From positions 130,696,001 through 130,760,000 of the forward strand of contig OZ024740.1 in NCBI GenBank assembly GCA_964016885.1: a stretch of 64,000 bases of DNA. The letters run 5' to 3'. The notes under the pieces are model-generated. The model saw only the letters and a program-made list of their open reading frames with translations. It was not told the origin of the DNA and did not search any database. A program made the translations under genes and the position numbers. Each line of letters opens with the position of its first letter. Position 1 is the stretch's first letter. Positions 19,608 to 50,458 of the stretch are shown piece after piece. This DNA is from Eledone cirrhosa (taxonomy: Eukaryota).

Positions 19608-22600
19608 ATTTATAAAGAAAAAAAGATGAAATCGAAAATGAAACTTGAGTCTTATTTTTAAAAATATATATATATTTATTTGGTTCCTTTACCGGTTTCG
19701 CAGTTCTTCTACTTTTCAAAAGTAGAGTTGAGATGGAGGGACTGTGGATTTTCTCACATCTGGTTGTTCTCTGAATGTTACTTGTTTTATATGGAAAAGG
19801 TGGCACCAAATGCCAGGTTTTTCGAGAAGTAATTTCATTGATTGGTCAATAATTATAATAAATTTCGCGCCTGTTTGAGTTACAAAGTTCTTCAAACAAG
19901 AGGGGGGGGGGCAGGTCTTTTTTTCATATATTACTGTTTGAATTTCTTTGTTACTTAAAAAGGGGGCACACGAATGCTTTTTTTTAATAAACGTAATTTG
20001 ATTGGTTATAAATGAAATTATGGCTGTCACGGGAACAAGTTTTCATTAAATTTTCGCGCCATTGTTTGGAAATATATTCTGTAGCCTTTTTAGAGAATTT
20101 TATGACGAGTAAATGATAATGGTCTGAGAAATTGGATGGGATAATTGTTCTGGTTCAGTGAATATGGTTAGTTCGCTGGGGTGTCAGAATTCAGATATTC
20201 TATTGAATAAAGAAAGTAAAGATATGAATGTTTATTTATGTACATGTGTGTGTGTATGTGTGTGTGTGCGTGTGTTGTGTATGTGTGTTTGAATTTAATT
20301 TTACTTTAAAAAAAGGGTCTCACGGAGGCTTTTTTTAATAAACGTAATTTGATTGGTTATAAATGAAATTATGGCTATCACGTGAACAAGTTTTCATAAC
20401 ATTTTCGCGCCCTTATTTGGAAATCTATTCTGTAGCCTTTTTAGAGAATTTTATGACAAGCAAAAGATAATGCTCAAGAGAAATTAGATGGGAGAATTGT
20501 TCTGATTCAGTGAATATGGTTAGTTTGCTGGAGTATCAGAATTCAGATTTTGTATTGAATAAAGAATGTAAAGATATGTATGTTTATCTGTGTGCTTGTG
20601 TGTGTGTTGTGTGTGTGTGTTTGAATTTCTTTTTACTTAACAAAAGGGGCTGACAATGCTTTTTTTTTATAAACGTAATTTGATTGGTTATAAATGAAAT
20701 TATGGCTGTCACGTGAACAAGTTTTCTTTAAATTTTCGCGCCCTTATTTGGAAATCTATTCTGTAGCCTTTTTAGAGAATTTTATGACGGGTAAAATATA
20801 ATGGTCAAGAGAAATTGGATGGGAGAATTGTTCTGGTTCAGTGAATAAGGTTAGTTCCCTGGGGTGTCAGATTTCAGATTTTCTATTGAATAAAGAAAGT
20901 AAAGATATGTATGTTTATTTGTGTGCTTGTGTGTGTGTGTACATGTGTGTTTGTGGGTGTGTGTGTTGTGTGTGTGTGTGTTTGAATTTCTTTTTACTTA
21001 AAAAAAGGGGTTCACGAAGGTTTTTTTTTTAATAAACGTAATTTGATTGCTTATAAATGAAATTATGGCTGACACGTGAACAAGTTTTCATAAAATTTTC
21101 GCGCCCTTATTTGGAAATCTATTCTGTAACCTTTTCAGATAATTTTATGACGGGTAAAAGATAATGATCAAGAGAAATTAGATGGGATAATTGTTCTGGT
21201 TCAGTGAATATGGTTAGTTTGCAAGAGTGTCAGAATTCAGATTTTGTATTGAATAAAGAAAGTAAAGATATGTATGTTTATCTGTGTGCTTGTGTGTGTG
21301 TTTGAACTTCTTTTTACTTAAAAAAATGGGTTCACGAAGGCTTTTTTTTAATAAACGTAATTGGATTGCTTATAAATGAAATTATGGCTGACACGTGAAC
21401 AGGTTTTCATTAAATTTTCGAGCCCTTATTTGGAAATCTATTCTGTAGACTTTTTAGAGAATTTTATGACAAGTAAAAGATAATGGTCTAGAGAAATTGT
21501 ATGGGAGAATTGTTTTGGTTCAGTGAACATGGTTAGTTCGCTGGGGAGTCAGAATTAAGATTTTCTCTTAAATAAAGAAAGTAAAGATATGTATGTTTAT
21601 TTGTGTGCTTGTCTGTGTGTGTTTTTGTGTGTGTGTGTTTGAATTTCTCTTCACTTTTAAAAAAGGGAGCTCACTAAAGGTTTTTTTTAATAAACTTAAT
21701 TTGATTGGTTATAAATGAAATTATGGCTGTCACGTGAACAAGTTTTCATTAAATTTTCGCGCCCTTATTTGGAAATCTATTCTGTAGCCTTTTTAGAGAA
21801 TTTTTTCCAAATAAGAGCGCGAAAATTTAATGCAAAGTTGTTCAGGTGACACCCATAATTTCATTTATAACCAAGTAAATTACGTTTATTAAAAAAAAAG
21901 CCCTCGTCAGCCCGCTCTTTTTAAGTAAAAAGAAATTCAAACACACACACACAACAGACACACACACAAGCACACAGATAAACATACATATATTTACTTT
22001 CTTTATTCAATAGAAAATCTGAATTCTGACACCCCAGCGAACTAACCATATTCATTGAACCAGAACAACTCTCCCATCCAATTTCTCAGACCAGTATCTT
22101 TTGCTTGTCATTAAGTTCTCTGAAAAGGCTACAGAATAGTTTTCCAAATAAGGGCCCGAAAATTTAATGAAAACTTGTTCACATGACAGCCATAATTTCA
22201 TTTATAACCAAACAAATTACGTTTATTATAAAAAAGCCTTCGTGAGCCCCCTTTTTTTAAGTAAACAGAAATTCAAACACACACACACACAACACACACA
22301 CAAGCACACAGATAAACATACATATCTTTACTTTCTTTATTCAATAGAAAATCTGAATTCTGACACCCCAGCGAACTAACCATATTCACTGAACCAGAAC
22401 AATTTTCCCATCTAATCTCTCTTGAGCATTATCGTTTGCTTGTCATAAAATTCTCTAAAAAGGCTACAGAATAGATTTCCAAATAAGGGCGCGATTATTT
22501 AATGAAAACTTGTTCACGTGACAGCTATAATTTCATTTATAACCAATCAAATTACGTTTATTAAAAAAAAGCCTCCGTGAGACCCTTTTTTTAAAGTAAA

Positions 22601-23276
22601 ATTAAATTCAAACACACATACACACACACATGTACATAAATAAACATACATATATTTACTTTCTTTATTCAATAGAATATCTGAATTCTGACACCCCAGC
22701 GAACTAACCATATTCACTGAACAAGAACAATTCTCCCATCCAATTTCTCTTGACCATTATCTTTTACTTGTCATCAAATTATCTAAAAAGGTTACAGAAT
22801 ATATTTCCAAATAAGGGCGCGAAAATTTAATGAAAACTTGTTCACGCGACAGCCATAATTTCATTTATAACCAATCAAATTACGTTTATTAAAAAAAACC
22901 CTTCGTGAGCCCCTTTTTTGAAGTAAACAGAAATTTAAACAATCATATATGAAAAAACAACCTGTGACACCCCCCACCCCCACCTTGTTCGAAGAACTTT
23001 GTAACGCGAACTCGCGTGAATTTTATTATAATTATTTACCAACCAATCAAATTACCTCTCTAAAAACCTGGCATTTGGAGCCTCTTTTTCCATATAAAAT
23101 AAGTAACAATCAGAGACCAACCAGATGTGAGAAAAACCAGGGAACCTCCATCTCAACTCTACTTTTGAAAAGCAGAAGGACTGCGAAACCGGTAAAGGAA
23201 CCAAATAAATATATATATATATTTTAAAATAAGACTCCAGTTCCATTTTCGATTTCATCTTTTTTACTTTATACAT
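19608..23276. repeat. Fold-back element: inverted unique arms (~350 bp) enclosing a ~320-365 bp tandem satellite that flips orientation near 21823
   Basis: Unit marker aaacgtaatttgattgg (with variants) at 19989, 20340, 20671, 21034, 21353 and 21692; reverse-complement marker near 21879, 22217, 22551 and 22879. 19610-19960 is the reverse complement of about 22920-23275. Confidence 0.92.
23162..23197 (+). ncRNA. Minimal hammerhead-like motif with U3-A8 core variant (mirror copy at 19687-19722, minus strand)
   Basis: CUU-UUGAAAA-GCAG-AAGGA-CUGC-GAAAC-CG-GUA-AAG. Stem I CUU/AAG, stem II GCAG/CUGC (GUAG/CUGC with a wobble in the other copy), palindromic stem III ACCGGU. Confidence 0.55.
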
Positions 23277-23329
23277 TCACTCGTGTAGGACACCTCGGTT
23301 ATTTTTCATTTTGTAACAAAAAACCTCAC

Positions 23330-23409
<80 letters not shown>

Positions 23410-36456: not shown

Positions 36457-36530
<74 letters not shown>

Positions 36531-36535
<5 letters not shown>

Positions 36536-37975
36536 ATATATATGCAGTAAGAAACACAGTAAATCGTGTGTCTAATATTACAAGGGTTGAAAAACCACAT
36601 TTGTTTGAAATATTTAACCAGGAAGCAGACAGAATGATATAATAAAAATATATTATTATACAAACCGCCTCAATAGCCATTTTATCTCTCGGACAGATTA
36701 TCGCTAATCTGTTTCGCCCTGAGTGTGTTTGTAACAGATAATCCTTAGGCATCATCAGCGAGAGAATCTGATTAAATGCAACAAACACTATGTACCAACG
36801 TTCACACAGAAAGGTGAAATTCATCACCTCGTGCGCCGCTAGTCAAACGTGGTAAGCGTGTATTGAATAGAAACAACAGTCCAACACACACAACTTAATA
36901 AGCTCGACTTGTGAGGGAGCAGAAATATAAATGAAAATTAGAGTTAAAACTCCAATTGTAACCTTGTAACTATTAAGCTCCAAGTATAAAATACTGAGCC
37001 GATTAATCATATATATGCAGTAAGAAACACAGTAAACCGTGTGTCTAATATTACAAGGGTTGAAAAAACCCATTTGTTTGAAATATTTAACCAAGAAGCA
37101 GACATAATGATAAAATAAAAATATATTATTATACAAACCGCCTCAATAACCATTTTATCTCTCGGACAGATTATCCCTTATCTGTTTCGCCCTGAGTGTG
37201 TTTGTAACAGATAATGCTTAGGCATCATCAGCGAGAGAATCTGATTAAATGCAACAAACACTATGTACCAACGTTCACACAGAAAGATGAAATTTATCAC
37301 CTCGTGCGCCGCTAGTCAAACGTGGTAAGCGTGTATTTCAAATATTTCAAACAAATGTGGTTTTTCAACCCTTGTAATATTAGACACACGGTTTACTGTG
37401 TTTCCTACTGCATATATATTATTAATCGGCTCAGTATTTATACTTGGAGCTTAATAGTTACAGGGTTTCAATTGGAGTTTTAACTCTAATTTTCATTTAT
37501 ATTTCTGCTCCCTCACAAGTCGAGCTTATTAAGTTGTGTGTGTTGGACTGTTGTTTCTATTCAATACACGCTTACCACGTTTGACTAGCGGCGCACGAGG
37601 TGATACATTTCATCTTTCTGTGTGAACGTTGGTACATAGTGTTTGTTGCATTTAAGCAGATTCTCTCGCTGATGATGCCTAAGGATTATCTGTTACAAAC
37701 ACACTCAGGGCGAAACAGATTAGGGATAATCTGTCCGAGAGATAATATGGTTATTGAGGCGGTTTGTATAATAATATAGTTTTATTTTATCATTCTGTCT
37801 GCTTCTTGGTTAAATATTTCAAACAAATGTGGTTTTTCAACCCTTGTAATATTAGACACACGGTTTACTGTGTTTCTTACTGCATATATATTATTATCGG
37901 CTCAGTATTTTATACTTGGAGCTTAATAGTTACAGGGTTTCAATTGGAGTTTTAACTCTAATTTTCATTTATATA
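36531..37975. mobile_element. Hammerhead-bearing tandem array, 473-bp unit, inverted near 37338 (putative non-LTR retrozyme family A)
   Basis: Marker gcagtaagaaacacag at 36544 and 37017; reverse-complement units from about 37340 and 37812. One hammerhead per unit, no credible ORF, (AT)n at both ends. Confidence 0.85.
37662..37742 (+). ncRNA. Type I hammerhead ribozyme with full stem III (other copies 36685-36765 and 37158-37238, minus strand)
   Basis: UCUCUCG-CUGAUGA-UGCCU...GGGC-GAA-ACAGAUUA-GGGA-UAAUCUGU-C-CGAGAGA. 7-bp stem I, 8-bp stem III, GUC cleavage triplet. Confidence 0.92.
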
Positions 37976-46368: not shown

Positions 46369-46427
<59 letters not shown>

Positions 46428-46430
<3 letters not shown>

Positions 46431-48150
46431 TATAGACATAGAATATTCGAAAATATTCTGTATGTTTATAATAAACATTTTGAAGACCTAATCGCTATAG
46501 AATAGAATACGTCACGTATTACAATTAGATTCTCGATAAAAGCAAGGGAAGTAATCTACGCGTTTCATTCTTGTTAGAAATCATCAGGACTACATATCCA
46601 GTGCTTTTATCGAGAATGACACAGCTAGAGACTTATAGAATACTTAGCTGTGTACAGGAACTGGTTTGAAAGAGCGGTTGCCGGTCCGGCACAAATTAGA
46701 AATTGGAATAAATGCTCTGAAATAGCGATATATATGTGAATATAGACATAGAATATTCGAAAATATTCTGTATGTTTATAATAAACCTAATCGCTATAGA
46801 ATAGAATACGTCACGTATTACAATTAGATTCTCGATAAAAGCAAGGGAAGTAATCTACGCGTTTCATTCTTGTTAGAAATCATCAGGACTACATATCCAG
46901 TGCTTTTATCGAGAATGACACAGCTAGAGACTTATAGAATACTTAGCTGTGTACAGGAACTGGTTTGAAAGAGCGGTTGCCGGTCCGGCAGAAATTAGAA
47001 ATTGGAATAAATGCTCTGAAATAGCGATATATATGTGAATATAGACATAGAATATTCGAAAATATTCTGTATGTTTATAATAAACATTTTGAAGACCTAA
47101 TCGCTATAGAATAGAATACGTCACGTATTACAATTAGATTCTCGATAAAAGCAAGGGAAGTAATCTACGCGTTTCATTCTTGTTAGAAATCATCAGGACT
47201 ACATATCCAGCGCTTTTATCGAGAATGACACAGCTAGAGACTTATAGAATACTTAGCTGTGTACAGGAACTGGTTTGAAAGAGCGGTTGCCGGTCCGGCA
47301 GAAATTAGAAATTGGAATAAATGCTCTGAAATAGCGATATATATGTGAATATAGACATAGAATATTCGAAAATATTCTGCTTTTATCGAGAATCTAATTG
47401 TAATACGTGACGTATTCTATTCTATAGCGATTAGGTCTTCAAAATGTTTATTATAAACATACAGAATATTTTCGAATATTCTATGTCTATATTCACATAT
47501 ATATCGCTATTTCAGAGCATTTATTCCAATTTCTAATTTCTGCCGGACCGGCAACCGCTCTTTCAAACCAGTTCCTGTACACAGCTAAGTATTCTATAAG
47601 TCTCTAGCTGTGTCATTCTCGATAAAAGCACTGGATATGTAGTCCTGATGATTTCTAACAAGAATGAAACGCGTAGATTACTTCCCTTGCTTTTATCGAG
47701 AATCTAATTGTAATACGTGACGTATTCTATTCTATAGCGATTAGGTCTTCAAAATGTTTATTATAAACATACAGAATATTTTCGAATATTCTATGTCTAT
47801 ATTCACATATATATCGCTATTTCAGAGCATTTATTCCAATTTCTAATTTCTGCCGGACCGGCAACCGCTCTTTCAAACCAGTTCCTGTACACAGCTAAGT
47901 ATTCTATAAGTCTCTAGCTGTGTCATTCTCGATAAAAGCACTGGATATGTAGTCCTGATGATTTCTAACAAGAATGAAACGCGTAGATTACTTCCCTTGC
48001 TTTTATCGAGAATCTAATTGTAATACGTGACGTATTCTATTCTATAGCGATTAGGTCTTCAAAATGTTTATTATAAACATACAGAATATTTTCGAATATT
48101 CTATGCTAATATTCACATATATATCGCTATTTCAGAGCATTTATTCCAAT
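46428..48150. mobile_element. Hammerhead-bearing tandem array, 310-bp unit, inverted near 47378 (putative non-LTR retrozyme family B)
   Basis: Marker gaatatagacatag at 46428, 46738, 47037 (preceding unit has an 11-bp deletion) and 47347; reverse-complement units start at 47378, 47688 and 47998. Units are nearly identical; five hammerheads; (AT)n at both ends. Confidence 0.9.
47639..47681 (+). ncRNA. Minimal type I hammerhead ribozyme (also 47949-47991 plus; 46551-46593, 46850-46892 and 47160-47202 minus)
   Basis: GUAGUC-CUGAUGA-U-UUCU-AACA-AGAA-U-GAAAC-GC-GUA-GAUUAC. Palindromic stem III ACGCGU. Stem I is extended past an internal loop by a 16-bp helix AUUCUCGAUAAAAGCA/UGCUUUUAUCGAGAAU. Confidence 0.92.
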
Positions 48151-48167
48151 ATATATATATATATATA

Positions 48168-50352
48168 GAAGTAGTTACACAACAGTTAGTTCACCATACC
48201 GAGAACAATTGTTTCACCTTCGCGGATCTTCAGCTCGGGATGTGTATGGCTATAGGAACAGGAAGGACAACCGTACGAACGGACAAGCGCAGAAACTCGG
48301 TCACTTCACACAGGCAATACTAGACTGCGTGCGGGGGGTGTAAGGGAGATAACTTCGAAAGTCCGGAAAGTTTTTGGGTTGAAAATAGAATAAAAAAATA
48401 AAAAAAATTACAAAGAATCGGTCCGGAGCCTTGTAGTTATACAATAGAGGTTTGGTGACGTGTGGACAACGTGTGAACAATTCACTTCTCGTGTTCAGAC
48501 AATCACTATTGGGTAACTCGTTAGGATAGTTATTCGTTCGTCAATACATAAGCCACACGTCGGATTTCCCCTTGCGTATGGCTTGGACTTAGTGATGGCT
48601 TTCCATTGAATGGAGTACCCTATACTTGAGTCCTTGAGAGACCATACGTGGATCGCGAGTTTCGTGGATGAACGTCTGTCCGGGTATCTGAAGGTAGACT
48701 GGTGGTTCAGGAAACGCTCCTTGAATCGGCCCTCCGCCATGCCCACATAGAATTTGACCTTCTGGGTTCGTTTGGTCGGTTGGAAGTGACCACAGCTTCA
48801 TAGATTACAGCTGGTGTGTTGCATTGTTGTTGAAAGGGGAAATATTCAGGCTTACGGCAAGAGCACCCTGGTGGGGTGTTGCTCCTAGGGCTGGTGGTGA
48901 TGTGGGCCTTCATGTTCTTAGCGCAAGAGTATCCTAGTTCAAGTTTGTGTCGGTTAAAGATGGAGCGGTATTTATGACCTATGGAGAAGTGTCTATCTAG
49001 AGGGCTAGCATTTTTTTCCTACATTGGTTTTAACGTTGAGTGAGAAGGGTGGAGAGAACCAGATAGTTTGTCTATTGATGCGCTTACTTTTCTTAATGGT
49101 GTCGTTGCTAGTGGGAGAGAATGTGATAGGTTGTGAGAAGCCGCTGTTAGCCAACGTCGTGTTATAGTAGGGTGCCGCCCTGTCAAAGATAGCCTTATTA
49201 GAGGAGAGGTTTGAGAGTCTAGTACTGATATTCTTAACGAAGTTTCTAAAAACAGTGGGAGGGTGGCATGAGTCCTTGTGGATGTAATTAAGTTTCTCGT
49301 TTAGCTTATGGAAGGGTCTGTGGATGTGTGTGCGAAGGTCTAAATTAATGTCTAAGAAATATACGCTAAAGAGGTTGATGGCTACTGTTATCCTAAGGCC
49401 GAACTCATTGAAGGTAGAAGCTAAGTCTTTTTTTAAACCGGTCGAGGTCGTGACACTTTTATGGCTCGATAAAGTCAGTCCATCCTCACGGTATATTCCC
49501 GTGTGGGCTTTTATTCTTAGACATATTACGTGTTAGATTCCCGGACTTCCACACGAGAATATACCGTGACGATGGACTGATTGTATCGAGCAATAAAACT
49601 GGTCACGATTTCGACCGGTTTAAAAAAGACTTAGCTTCTACCTTCAATGAGTTAGGCCTTAGGATAACAGTAGCCACCAACCCCTCTAGCGTAGATTTCT
49701 TAGACATTAATTTAGACCTTCGCACACACACCCACAGACCCTTCCATAAGCTAAACGAGAAACTTAATTACATTCACAAGGACTCATACCACCCTCCCAC
49801 TGTTTTTAGAAACTTCGTTAAGAATATCAGTACTAGAATCTCAAACCTCTCCTCTAATAAGGCTATCAGAAACTTGCCAGCCACGCATGGTCCCTCAAGG
49901 ACTCAAATATTGGGTACTCAATTCAATGGAAACCATCATTAAGTCCAAGCCATACGCAAGGGGAAATCCGACGTGTGGCTTATGTATTGACGAACGAATA
50001 ACTATCCTAAAGAGATTACCCAATAGTGATTGCCTAAACATGAGGAGTGAATTTTTCACACGTTGTCCACACGTCACCAAACATCTATTGCATAACTACA
50101 AGGTTCCGTACTGATTCTTTGTAATTTTATTCTAAATTTTTTAATTTTATTTTCAACCAAACAACTTTCCGGACTTTCGCAGTTATCTCCCTTATATCCC
50201 CCGCACGCAGTCTAGTATTTCCTGTGTAAAGTGACCGAGTTTCTGCGCATGTGCCTTCCTACGGTTGGCCTTCCTGTTCCTATAACCATACACATCCCGA
50301 GCTGAAGATCCGCGAAGGGGAAACAATTGTTCTAGGTATGGTGAAACTAACT
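48168..50352. mobile_element. Nematis-like PLE, 5'-truncated, head-to-head inverted pair (minus arm 48168-49530; plus arm 49535-50352 with an internal deletion near 49868)
   Basis: YREDG/YRDDG RT motif, DFLDI, CSCRKPE...C...VIYEAVV, GMAEGRFKERFLNH...TKLAIHVWSLK...CGLCIDE (GIY-YIG). Hammerhead near each outer end; (AT)n flanks. Confidence 0.9.
48199..48238 (-). ncRNA. Minimal hammerhead ribozyme of the PLE 3' end (mirror copy 50297-50336, plus strand)
   Basis: CCGAG-CUGAAGA-UCC-GCGAA-GGU-GAAAC-AAUU-GUU-CUCGG. Stem I CCGAG/CUCGG, palindromic stem III ACAAUUGU. Confidence 0.8.
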
Positions 50353-50458
50353 CATCCCTTGGTCTGAGTGCTCTACCACACCTTCCAGTGTTCCACCACT
50401 ATATATATATATCTACATATATATATATATATATACACATATATATATATATATATAC

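What the first reader, a model, noticed from the sequence alone, without database searches (positions are those of the whole stretch)
46428..48150. Retrozyme-like array B: very young 310-bp hammerhead repeats arranged as a giant palindrome
Seen: about 3.1 units, then about 2.5 inverted units, almost identical (a few substitutions and one 11-bp deletion). Each complete unit has a minimal hammerhead with palindromic stem III (ACGCGU), a stem I extended by a 16-bp helix across an internal loop, and further hairpins (ACACAGCUA/UAGCUGUGU, AAUACG/CGUAUU, AUGUUUA/UAAACAU, AGAAUAUU/AAUAUUCU). No ORF. Known: minimal type I hammerheads cleave as dimers, which tandem units allow; retrozyme monomers circularise. 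Inference: a recently active viroid-like 310-nt circular RNA, copied several times around by a reverse transcriptase and integrated with an inversion. Probably an undescribed family.
Basis: partly seen in the sequence, partly recalled or inferred. Interest (0 to 1): 0.9.

Follow-up and report, generated by a model that had tools for sequence, protein, structure and literature searches.

The report
Self-cutting RNA repeats inserting as palindromes
This is one of more than a thousand copies of a 310-base repeat carrying a hammerhead ribozyme motif that mostly sit in the genome as head-to-head palindromes with one short and one long end, a pattern that likely records a Penelope-type retrotransposon enzyme copying a predicted RNA circle round and round from both DNA strands.

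Summary
The genome holds 4,177 exact ribozyme cores and at least 1,249 array ends. All 142 fully seen inverted insertions are head-to-head and end at two fixed unit positions, one arm at about +131 and the other at about +165; most ends abut (TA)n. That 34-nt 'tail' is the known Penelope-like-element (PLE) signature. Both arms share one haplotype in 114 of 116 loci, and private variants are fixed in every unit. Inner ends do not pile up at the ribozyme cut. Inherited variants spare the core and helices (2/39 versus 49/148). So each insertion likely came from one monomer, most likely a circle, copied by a PLE reverse transcriptase primed on both target strands. The class is known (non-LTR retrozymes, proposed to be PLE-driven). 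I did not find the family or this two-ended architecture for a retrozyme in print. Cleavage, circular RNA and the partner PLE are untested; fold-back copying remains a rival. The scan noted similar PLE palindromes in another genome.

The parts
46372..46427 (.). (TA)n microsatellite, left half of the target site
   Evidence: TRF row 46372-46427; 314 of 330 family ends are followed by 4 or more further alternating A/T bases
46428..47379 (-). Left arm, about 3.1 units, ribozyme on the minus strand; outer end is the SHORT end (unit about +131, merging into (TA)n); inner end at unit +97
46785..46786 (-). Site of the 11-bp deletion (unit 70-80), in one unit only
   Evidence: 1 of 3 left-arm units, 0 of 3 right-arm units; sequence
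46557..46587 (-). Hammerhead core, copy 1
46856..46886 (-). Hammerhead core, copy 2
47166..47196 (-). Hammerhead core, copy 3
47378..47379 (.). Centre junction of the two arms, 2-nt overlap (microhomology)
   Evidence: gap -2
47378..48150 (+). Right arm, about 2.5 units, ribozyme on the plus strand; inner end at unit +13, outer end is the LONG end (+165)
47645..47675 (+). Type I hammerhead core (helix II 4 bp plus U-U, helix III 2 bp with palindromic ACGCGU); predicted cut after 47675
   Evidence: covariation with the sister lineage
47676..47985 (+). One cut-to-cut monomer, 310 nt, 34% GC, the predicted circular RNA
47955..47985 (+). Hammerhead core, copy 5
48117..48150 (+). 34-nt 'tail' (unit +132 to +165), present at the outer end of only this arm
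48151..48167 (.). (TA)n microsatellite, right half of the target site

Best explanation
The locus is a young insertion of a non-coding 310-bp hammerhead repeat family (a non-LTR retrozyme) whose copies lie head-to-head in (TA)n with one short and one long end, likely made by a Penelope-like RT/GIY-YIG enzyme that primes on both target strands and copies one predicted RNA circle several times round. Steps: (1) Arrays are transcribed (inferred). (2) Neighbouring hammerheads pair through ACGCGU and cut out 310-nt monomers (fold predicted; selection on the structure shown). (3) A host ligase closes the monomer (inferred from published retrozymes). (4) A PLE protein supplied in trans nicks both strands of a (TA)n tract (target shown; enzyme inferred, partner family not identified). 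(5) One nick primes cDNA at unit about +131 and the other at about +165 (the ends are shown; that they are RT start sites is inferred from the Poseidon in-vitro work). (6) Each RT runs round the monomer for a median of 3-4 turns (single-haplotype arms shown). (7) The two cDNA ends join at scattered positions, often through microhomology (shown).
For: Family: 4,177 exact 43-nt cores, reversed control 0; 1,249 short-end matches; 685 forward long-end matches, with reverse matches mostly double-counted. End rule: in C1 0-153.5 Mb, 51 of 51 divergent end pairs are short+long (p = 4e-16). In all, 142 of 142 fully seen inverted insertions are short+long, 77 of them fetched by one end only. This matches the PLE inverted copy, 30-40-bp tail at one end and (TA)n bias (PMC8557442 passages; PMC3846280 passages). 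It also matches the in-vitro finding that a PLE protein nicks and extends both strands, is predicted to be a dimer and has two RT start sites bounding the tail (PMC11167929 parts 1-2). Monomer bottleneck: 180 variants fixed in all units, 200 singletons, 24 intermediate; arms share a haplotype in 114 of 116 loci (permutation mean 14.0, maximum 28); 42 haplotypes, 33 seen once. 26 of 142 loci carry a private fixed variant, close to the 0.158 singletons per genomic unit expected if one unit founds each insertion. No nick at the cut: 5 of 284 inner ends lie within -5..+10 of it, against 13.7 expected; 2 of 200 singletons lie at the junction, against 6.5. Selection: 2 of 39 inherited substitution types versus 49 of 148 singletons hit the core or break a helix (Fisher p = 2e-4). 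With 16 older sister-lineage copies, 11 of 27 pairs change on both sides, 0 of 500 shuffles reach this, and slid controls give at most 4. Overlaps of 4 nt or more at the centre: 56 of 142, against about 3 expected.
Against: No partner PLE was found. The two PLE families compared by BLAST share no sequence with the unit ends; the only strong hit was a sister-lineage copy inserted beside one of them. The three families examined have tails of about 66, 45 and 60 nt, not 34. Three loci show variants mirrored in register in both arms (L121, L107, L183), which two independent copies of one monomer circle do not predict. Inner ends are enriched at +11..+30 (29 versus 18.3, p = 0.015; 25 versus 15.2 after removing long overlaps), which could be trimmed run-off at a cut 5' end; over +1..+30 the excess vanishes (27 versus 22.8). 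Repeated variant blocks in long arms (L035, L241) show that some length is gained after insertion. 24 loci have one arm only, 2 of them with a stump of the second. In the Poseidon work the hammerhead was dispensable for insertion in vitro. The covariation shuffle does not control for relatedness.
Confidence: 0.63

Rival explanations
1. Same retrozyme, same PLE machinery and same monomer template, but only one arm is reverse-transcribed. The cDNA folds back on itself (self-priming) and is copied into the inverted arm, and the endonuclease resolves the second end 34 nt away.
For: Proposed for PLE head-to-head repeats (PMC3846280 passages); tail attributed to EN resolution (PMC8557442 passages). 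In-register mirrored variants at L121 (two units of one haplotype, then another, in both arms), L107 and L183, all with the long-end arm the longer. Centre microhomology fits both models.
Against: The long-end arm is the longer in only 72 of 142 loci, so the copy would have to run either way and still stop at exactly the other fixed site. L140 switches haplotype in one arm only; L035 and L148 share variants out of register. 152 rare variants in doubly covered zones are unmirrored versus 2 mirrored pairs, though most may post-date insertion. Both tail boundaries are RT start sites in vitro. Arm-to-arm gene conversion could also give mirrored variants (inference).
Confidence: 0.19
2. The template is a cut linear monomer held end-to-end by stem I and the 16-bp helix; the RT jumps the nick each turn, so no covalent circle is needed.
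For: The fold brings both ends of the monomer together. Two inherited haplotypes carry an extra base two positions after the cut (11 loci). Inner ends are enriched at +11..+30.
Against: No per-turn scars: 2 of 200 singletons at the junction versus 6.5 expected. Inner ends are depleted at the cut (5 of 284). Published retrozymes accumulate as true circles (PMC7229834 sections 13-15).
Confidence: 0.08
3. The arrays are PLE end repeats copied from long linear transcripts, or inserted short and expanded locally by unequal crossover like a satellite (the route favoured in bioRxiv 10.64898/2026.07.22.740005).
For: Block duplications exist in some long arms (L035, L241). L121 and L140 are mixed arrays. 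PLEs form partial tandems without circles.
Against: 29 private variant types are fixed in all units of one locus while 200 singletons stay unhomogenised. 207 of 284 arms exceed two units, and both arms of an insertion are usually multimeric. Only 17 singleton types recur at more than one locus. No ORF-bearing element carrying this unit was found next to 30 sister-lineage hits or the family loci checked.
Confidence: 0.08
4. The palindrome is an assembly or amplification artefact, or a fold-back DNA transposon with terminal inverted repeats.
For: A few loci sit beside N gaps or appear duplicated (L033, L103, L143, L209). The inversion was not seen in raw reads here.
Against: Artefacts and TIR elements would not give one short and one long end in 142 of 142 cases with locus-specific centres, nor the same two ends in an older sister lineage.
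Confidence: 0.02

Closest known systems
Non-LTR retrozymes of animals (Cervera & de la Pena 2020, PMC7229834; seen: abstract, sections 13, 14, 15, 17, term search)
   Same: Tandem 150-450-bp repeats, type I hammerhead in each unit, GC under 50%, no ORF, no LTR/PBS/PPT. Weak helix III and a U-U at the base of helix II resemble the axolotl ribozymes that cleave better as dimers. The paper proposes RT on the circle giving tandem cDNA, with PLEs as candidate helpers.
   Different: The paper's main text has no occurrence of 'inverted', 'opposite' or 'microsatellite'. Here head-to-head form, two fixed ends and (TA)n targeting are the rule. Circles are shown there and untested here. Its supplementary figures were not seen.
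Retrozymes as non-autonomous PLE derivatives (Li, Clavereau, Pollet, bioRxiv 10.64898/2026.07.22.740005; seen: parts 1-3 of 5 and a term search; supplements closed)
   Same: Links retrozymes to PLEs by co-occurrence and pLTR homology.
   Different: It does not discuss orientation or tails and favours local satellite-like amplification. Here the link is the integration footprint; no pLTR homology to an ORF-bearing PLE was found, and the variants favour monomer-templated multimers.
EN+ Penelope-like elements: inverted 5'-truncated copy, 30-40-bp tail, (TA)n targets (PMC8557442 and PMC3846280, passages; PMC11167929, parts 1-2 of 4)
   Same: Head-to-head arms, a tail on one end, microsatellite target, two start sites, joining by microhomology.
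   Different: No RT/EN ORF; both arms are multimers of one small unit. The tail, described as 'optional' or 'often at one end', is here on exactly one end in 142 of 142 inverted insertions.
L1 twin priming (recalled, not looked up)
   Same: Both target strands prime cDNA and give an inversion joined by microhomology.
   Different: In L1 the two arms come from non-overlapping parts of one linear RNA. Here both arms hold the same sequence, start at fixed sites 34 nt apart, and the long arm's inner end is not clustered at the short start (5 of 65 versus 3.4 expected).

Membership tests
Non-LTR retrozyme | Short tandem repeat (about 150-450 bp) with a type I hammerhead in each unit | tested here: met
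   310-bp units, five cores in the window; 4,177 exact cores genome-wide
Non-LTR retrozyme | Hammerhead with conserved core and helices under selection | tested here: met
   No inherited variant in 11 core positions; 2/39 versus 49/148 harmful; covariation with sister lineage, including U3-A8 cores (variant described in PMC4209133). Rfam models give no hit.
Non-LTR retrozyme | Non-coding, GC below 50%, no LTR structure | tested here: met
   Longest ATG frame 30 aa, GC 34%; ends abut (TA)n. PBS/PPT were not searched for separately.
Non-LTR retrozyme | Dispersed multi-locus distribution | tested here: met
   1,249 short-end matches; loci read on C1 and C2
Non-LTR retrozyme | Self-cleavage in vitro (better as a dimer) | not testable with these tools
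   Only a cofold prediction of the dimer helix III
Non-LTR retrozyme | Expression as unit-length linear and circular RNA | tested here: inconclusive
   Three laid runs of unrecorded kind each give one 340-nt cyclic contig, which tandem DNA gives as well as a circle
PLE-type integration | Inverted 5'-truncated copy, head-to-head | tested here: met
   142 of 166 classified insertions
PLE-type integration | 30-40-bp tail at one end | tested here: met
   Ends at about +131 and about +165; 142 of 142 short+long
PLE-type integration | (TA)n / AT-rich target | tested here: met
   314 of 330 ends
Autonomous PLE | ORF with RT and GIY-YIG endonuclease | tested here: not met
   No ORF in the unit; the element is non-autonomous
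pLTR derivative of a specific PLE | Sequence homology of the unit to the pLTR of an ORF-bearing PLE | tested here: inconclusive
   None by BLAST for two families or by reading the ends of the third; none beside 30 sister hits; other PLE families in the genome were not examined
Viroid / viroid-like infectious RNA | RNA-to-RNA replication independent of a DNA copy | not testable with these tools
   Nothing here requires it; genomic copies explain the data

The most novel reading that the evidence does not exclude
A dimeric Penelope-like enzyme uses its two start sites at once on one and the same 310-nt RNA circle: two reverse transcriptases 34 nt apart, each primed by one strand of a nicked (TA)n tract, roll round it together, the trailing one displacing the leader's cDNA. 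That would explain, in one mechanism, the tail, the strict short+long rule, the inversion, the shared haplotype and L121, where both arms switch haplotype after the same two turns. It would be the missing PLE integration mechanism, read from a natural rolling-circle substrate.
Probability: 0.3. Interest if true: 0.8.

Novelty: new variant of a known kind. Interest (0 to 1): 0.57.

Why it matters
Two questions are stated as open in the papers read: how retrozymes integrate (circle-templated RT by a PLE was proposed, not shown; local satellite expansion is the alternative), and how PLEs make inverted, tailed insertions. This family gives more than a thousand near-identical natural products with a strict end rule and haplotype tags. 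They tie retrozymes to PLE enzymes by footprint rather than co-occurrence, and they favour monomer-templated multimers. It also supplies a 310-nt substrate with predicted start sites for the existing in-vitro PLE assay, which makes both questions directly testable. The class itself is known, so this is a mechanistic clarification rather than a new kind of element.

Tried and rejected
DNA search of the own genome with the unit returned nothing because common words are skipped; patterns were used instead. Rfam: no hit at gathering score. Pfam did not recognise the four neighbour-PLE fragments; their assignment rests on motifs and a longer relative. Sequencing runs: no RNA holder listed; the one raw-read run laid (X21, Hi-C) had 0 reads, so the inversion was not tested in reads; X1 is near-identical and may be this DNA's source. 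Partner hunt: the neighbouring Hydra-type PLE (tail about 66 nt), a young family with about 900-aa frames (tail about 45 nt) and a third family (tail about 60 nt) do not match the unit's ends; single-arm loci have no PLE second arm; PLE fragments near sister copies L257, L267 and L323 read as separate insertions. A genome-wide count of mixed-haplotype boundaries was not obtained, so the test between two primings and fold-back rests on a handful of loci. Arm lengths do not separate the models (rho 0.27). Rows left out of the 142: L033, L103, L143, L128/L129, L041 (N gaps or cut by the fetch), L093 and L215 (complex), six truncated or gapped loci, and duplicate views (L034 second insertion, L209 second copy, L243 second fragment); those with both ends visible are also short+long. 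Not-in-print claims rest on searches and term searches, which cover open-access text only; unseen supplements of PMC7229834 and of the 2026 preprint may show inverted arrays or this family. The word 'octopus' in two searches and in term searches was my guess from a recalled SINE resemblance and was not tested.

Full report
Observation. The window holds 3.1 units of a 310-bp repeat at 46418-47379 and 2.5 inverted units at 47378-48150. Five type I hammerhead cores are present, three on the minus strand in the left arm and two on the plus strand in the right arm, with the GUA cut after 47675 and 47985. The arms are therefore head-to-head, with RNA-sense 3' ends facing outward into (TA)n. The monomer folds better than shuffles (z -4.38; circular -4.58), has no ATG frame over 30 aa and no Rfam hit. 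Two ribozyme fragments cofold into the double-hammerhead form through ACGCGU (prediction). By PMC4209133 (passages) this is the canonical metazoan type with a weak helix III rather than the PLE minimal form.

The family. An exact 43-nt core occurs 4,177 times in the 3.0-Gb assembly, reversed control 0. Only 369 of 1,494 cores in the fetched loci are exact, which extrapolates roughly to 17,000 units (sample from C1 and C2 only). Numbering from the cut, arrays end at two places: a short end near +131, where an internal AT run merges into the target, and a long end near +165. Short-end matches number 1,249; long-end matches 685 forward plus 1,302 reverse, the latter mostly double-counted. In the first 153.5 Mb of C1, 75 long and 70 short ends formed 51 divergent pairs, all short+long; 43 ends were unpaired by exact pattern. 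Fetching loci gave 142 fully seen inverted insertions, every one short+long, 77 of them picked by one end alone, and 24 single-arm loci. Left-out rows are listed under Tried and rejected. 314 of 330 outer ends run into alternating AT. Arms have a median of 3.4 units. Inner ends are scattered and enriched for microhomology (56 of 142 with 4 nt or more, about 3 expected).

What made the ends. An inverted 5'-truncated copy, a 30-40-bp tail on one end and (TA)n targeting are the published marks of endonuclease-bearing Penelope-like elements (PMC8557442 passages; PMC3846280 passages). In vitro a Poseidon protein nicks and extends both target strands, is predicted to dimerise, and starts reverse transcription at two internal sites that bound the tail (PMC11167929 parts 1-2). 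Priming from both strands on a sense RNA gives exactly the orientation seen here (inference). The genome has such enzymes: the neighbour at 48168-50398 is a truncated, inverted PLE whose relative L077 has a 722-aa frame with RWR, DKT and CxCx5C motifs of the Hydra clade, and another family has many frames of about 900 aa. All three families examined show short and long ends, but with tails of about 66, 45 and 60 nt and no match to this unit's ends. The partner is unidentified.

What the template was. Variants are bimodal: 180 fixed in all units, 200 singletons, 24 intermediate. The two arms carry the same haplotype in 114 of 116 loci (permutation mean 14.0, maximum 28), across 42 haplotypes of which 33 are seen once. 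26 of 142 loci have a private variant in every unit, about what sampling one genomic unit would give at 0.158 singletons per unit. So each insertion passed through one monomer. Inner ends avoid the cut site (5 of 284 versus 13.7) and junction singletons are few (2 versus 6.5), which favours a sealed circle over a cut linear RNA. An excess at +11..+30 is the caveat. Inherited substitutions spare the core and helices (2 of 39 versus 49 of 148). An older sister lineage (1,818 matches to a 20-mer; about 320 bp, 68-78% identical) is colinear, ends at the same two sites and covaries in 11 of 27 pairs (0 of 500 shuffles, a control blind to relatedness; slid controls at most 4). The ribozyme is thus likely needed for spread.

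Against and open. L121, L107 and L183 carry variants mirrored in register in both arms, as fold-back self-priming (proposed in PMC3846280) or arm-to-arm conversion would give. L140, L035 and L148 are not mirrored, and 152 rare variants are unmirrored against 2 mirrored pairs. Block duplications show some later growth of long arms. Cleavage, circles, expression, polymorphism and raw-read support for the inversion were not tested.

Comparison. The element meets the sequence-level criteria of non-LTR retrozymes (PMC7229834: abstract, sections 13, 14, 15, 17). That paper proposes circle-templated tandem cDNA and names PLEs as candidates. A 2026 preprint (parts 1-3) links retrozymes to PLE pLTRs but favours local expansion. 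Neither main text treats orientation or tails, and searches found no report of head-to-head retrozymes or of this family; subscription papers and supplements were not seen.

Verdict. Real, young and multi-locus; a new family of a known class whose integration footprint and haplotype structure give unusually clean genomic evidence for PLE-driven, monomer-templated retrozyme transposition. New variant of a known kind; interest 0.57.

Noticed in passing
window 48168-50398: Older, 5'-truncated, head-to-head PLE of Hydra type (RT C-terminus and GIY-YIG fragments, own small hammerhead), arms 91-96% alike; its family has short and long ends about 66 nt apart; 34,871 first-look candidates in the genome.
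   Followed up: partly
window 36525-37970: A second, unrelated hammerhead repeat family (unit about 473 bp, type I core with long helices), also head-to-head in (TA)n, with ends differing by about 70 nt.
   Followed up: no
window 19610-23340: Head-to-head insertion with internal repeats of about 330 bp and one end about 65 nt longer; no hammerhead found by my descriptor.
   Followed up: no
L253-L282, L179, L113, L178: Older sister lineage of the 310-bp family, with longer palindromic helix III, GUC cut and, in several subfamilies, a U3-A8 core; L282 has a shorter unit of about 163 bp that appears to lack the ribozyme.
   Followed up: partly
L134, L192, L208, L244, L249: A dispersed family whose hammerhead core matches the young family's over 26 of 28 bases but has a full helix III; possible core swap or convergence.
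   Followed up: no
runs X1-X20: 20 holders in 16 studies under 17 organism labels. The three laid each give one 340-nt cyclic contig with 0, 0 and 1 differences at depth 10-26; a Hi-C run under label J had no reads. Kind of run unrecorded; trace carry-over, diet or horizontal spread cannot be told apart.
   Followed up: partly
L121 and L140: Mixed-haplotype insertions: L121 switches after two units in both arms; L140 switches in one arm only.
   Followed up: partly
L036:2899-3170: 272 bp of unrelated sequence captured between the two arms; L227 has a TA-rich run of about 250 bp there instead.
   Followed up: no
G000 loci L284-L307: Young PLE family with many near-identical hits and frames of about 900 aa, head-to-head pairs and a tail of about 45 nt; likely still active.
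   Followed up: partly
L103, L209: The same insertion appears twice in tandem (L103 also holds an N gap); possibly assembly duplication.
   Followed up: no
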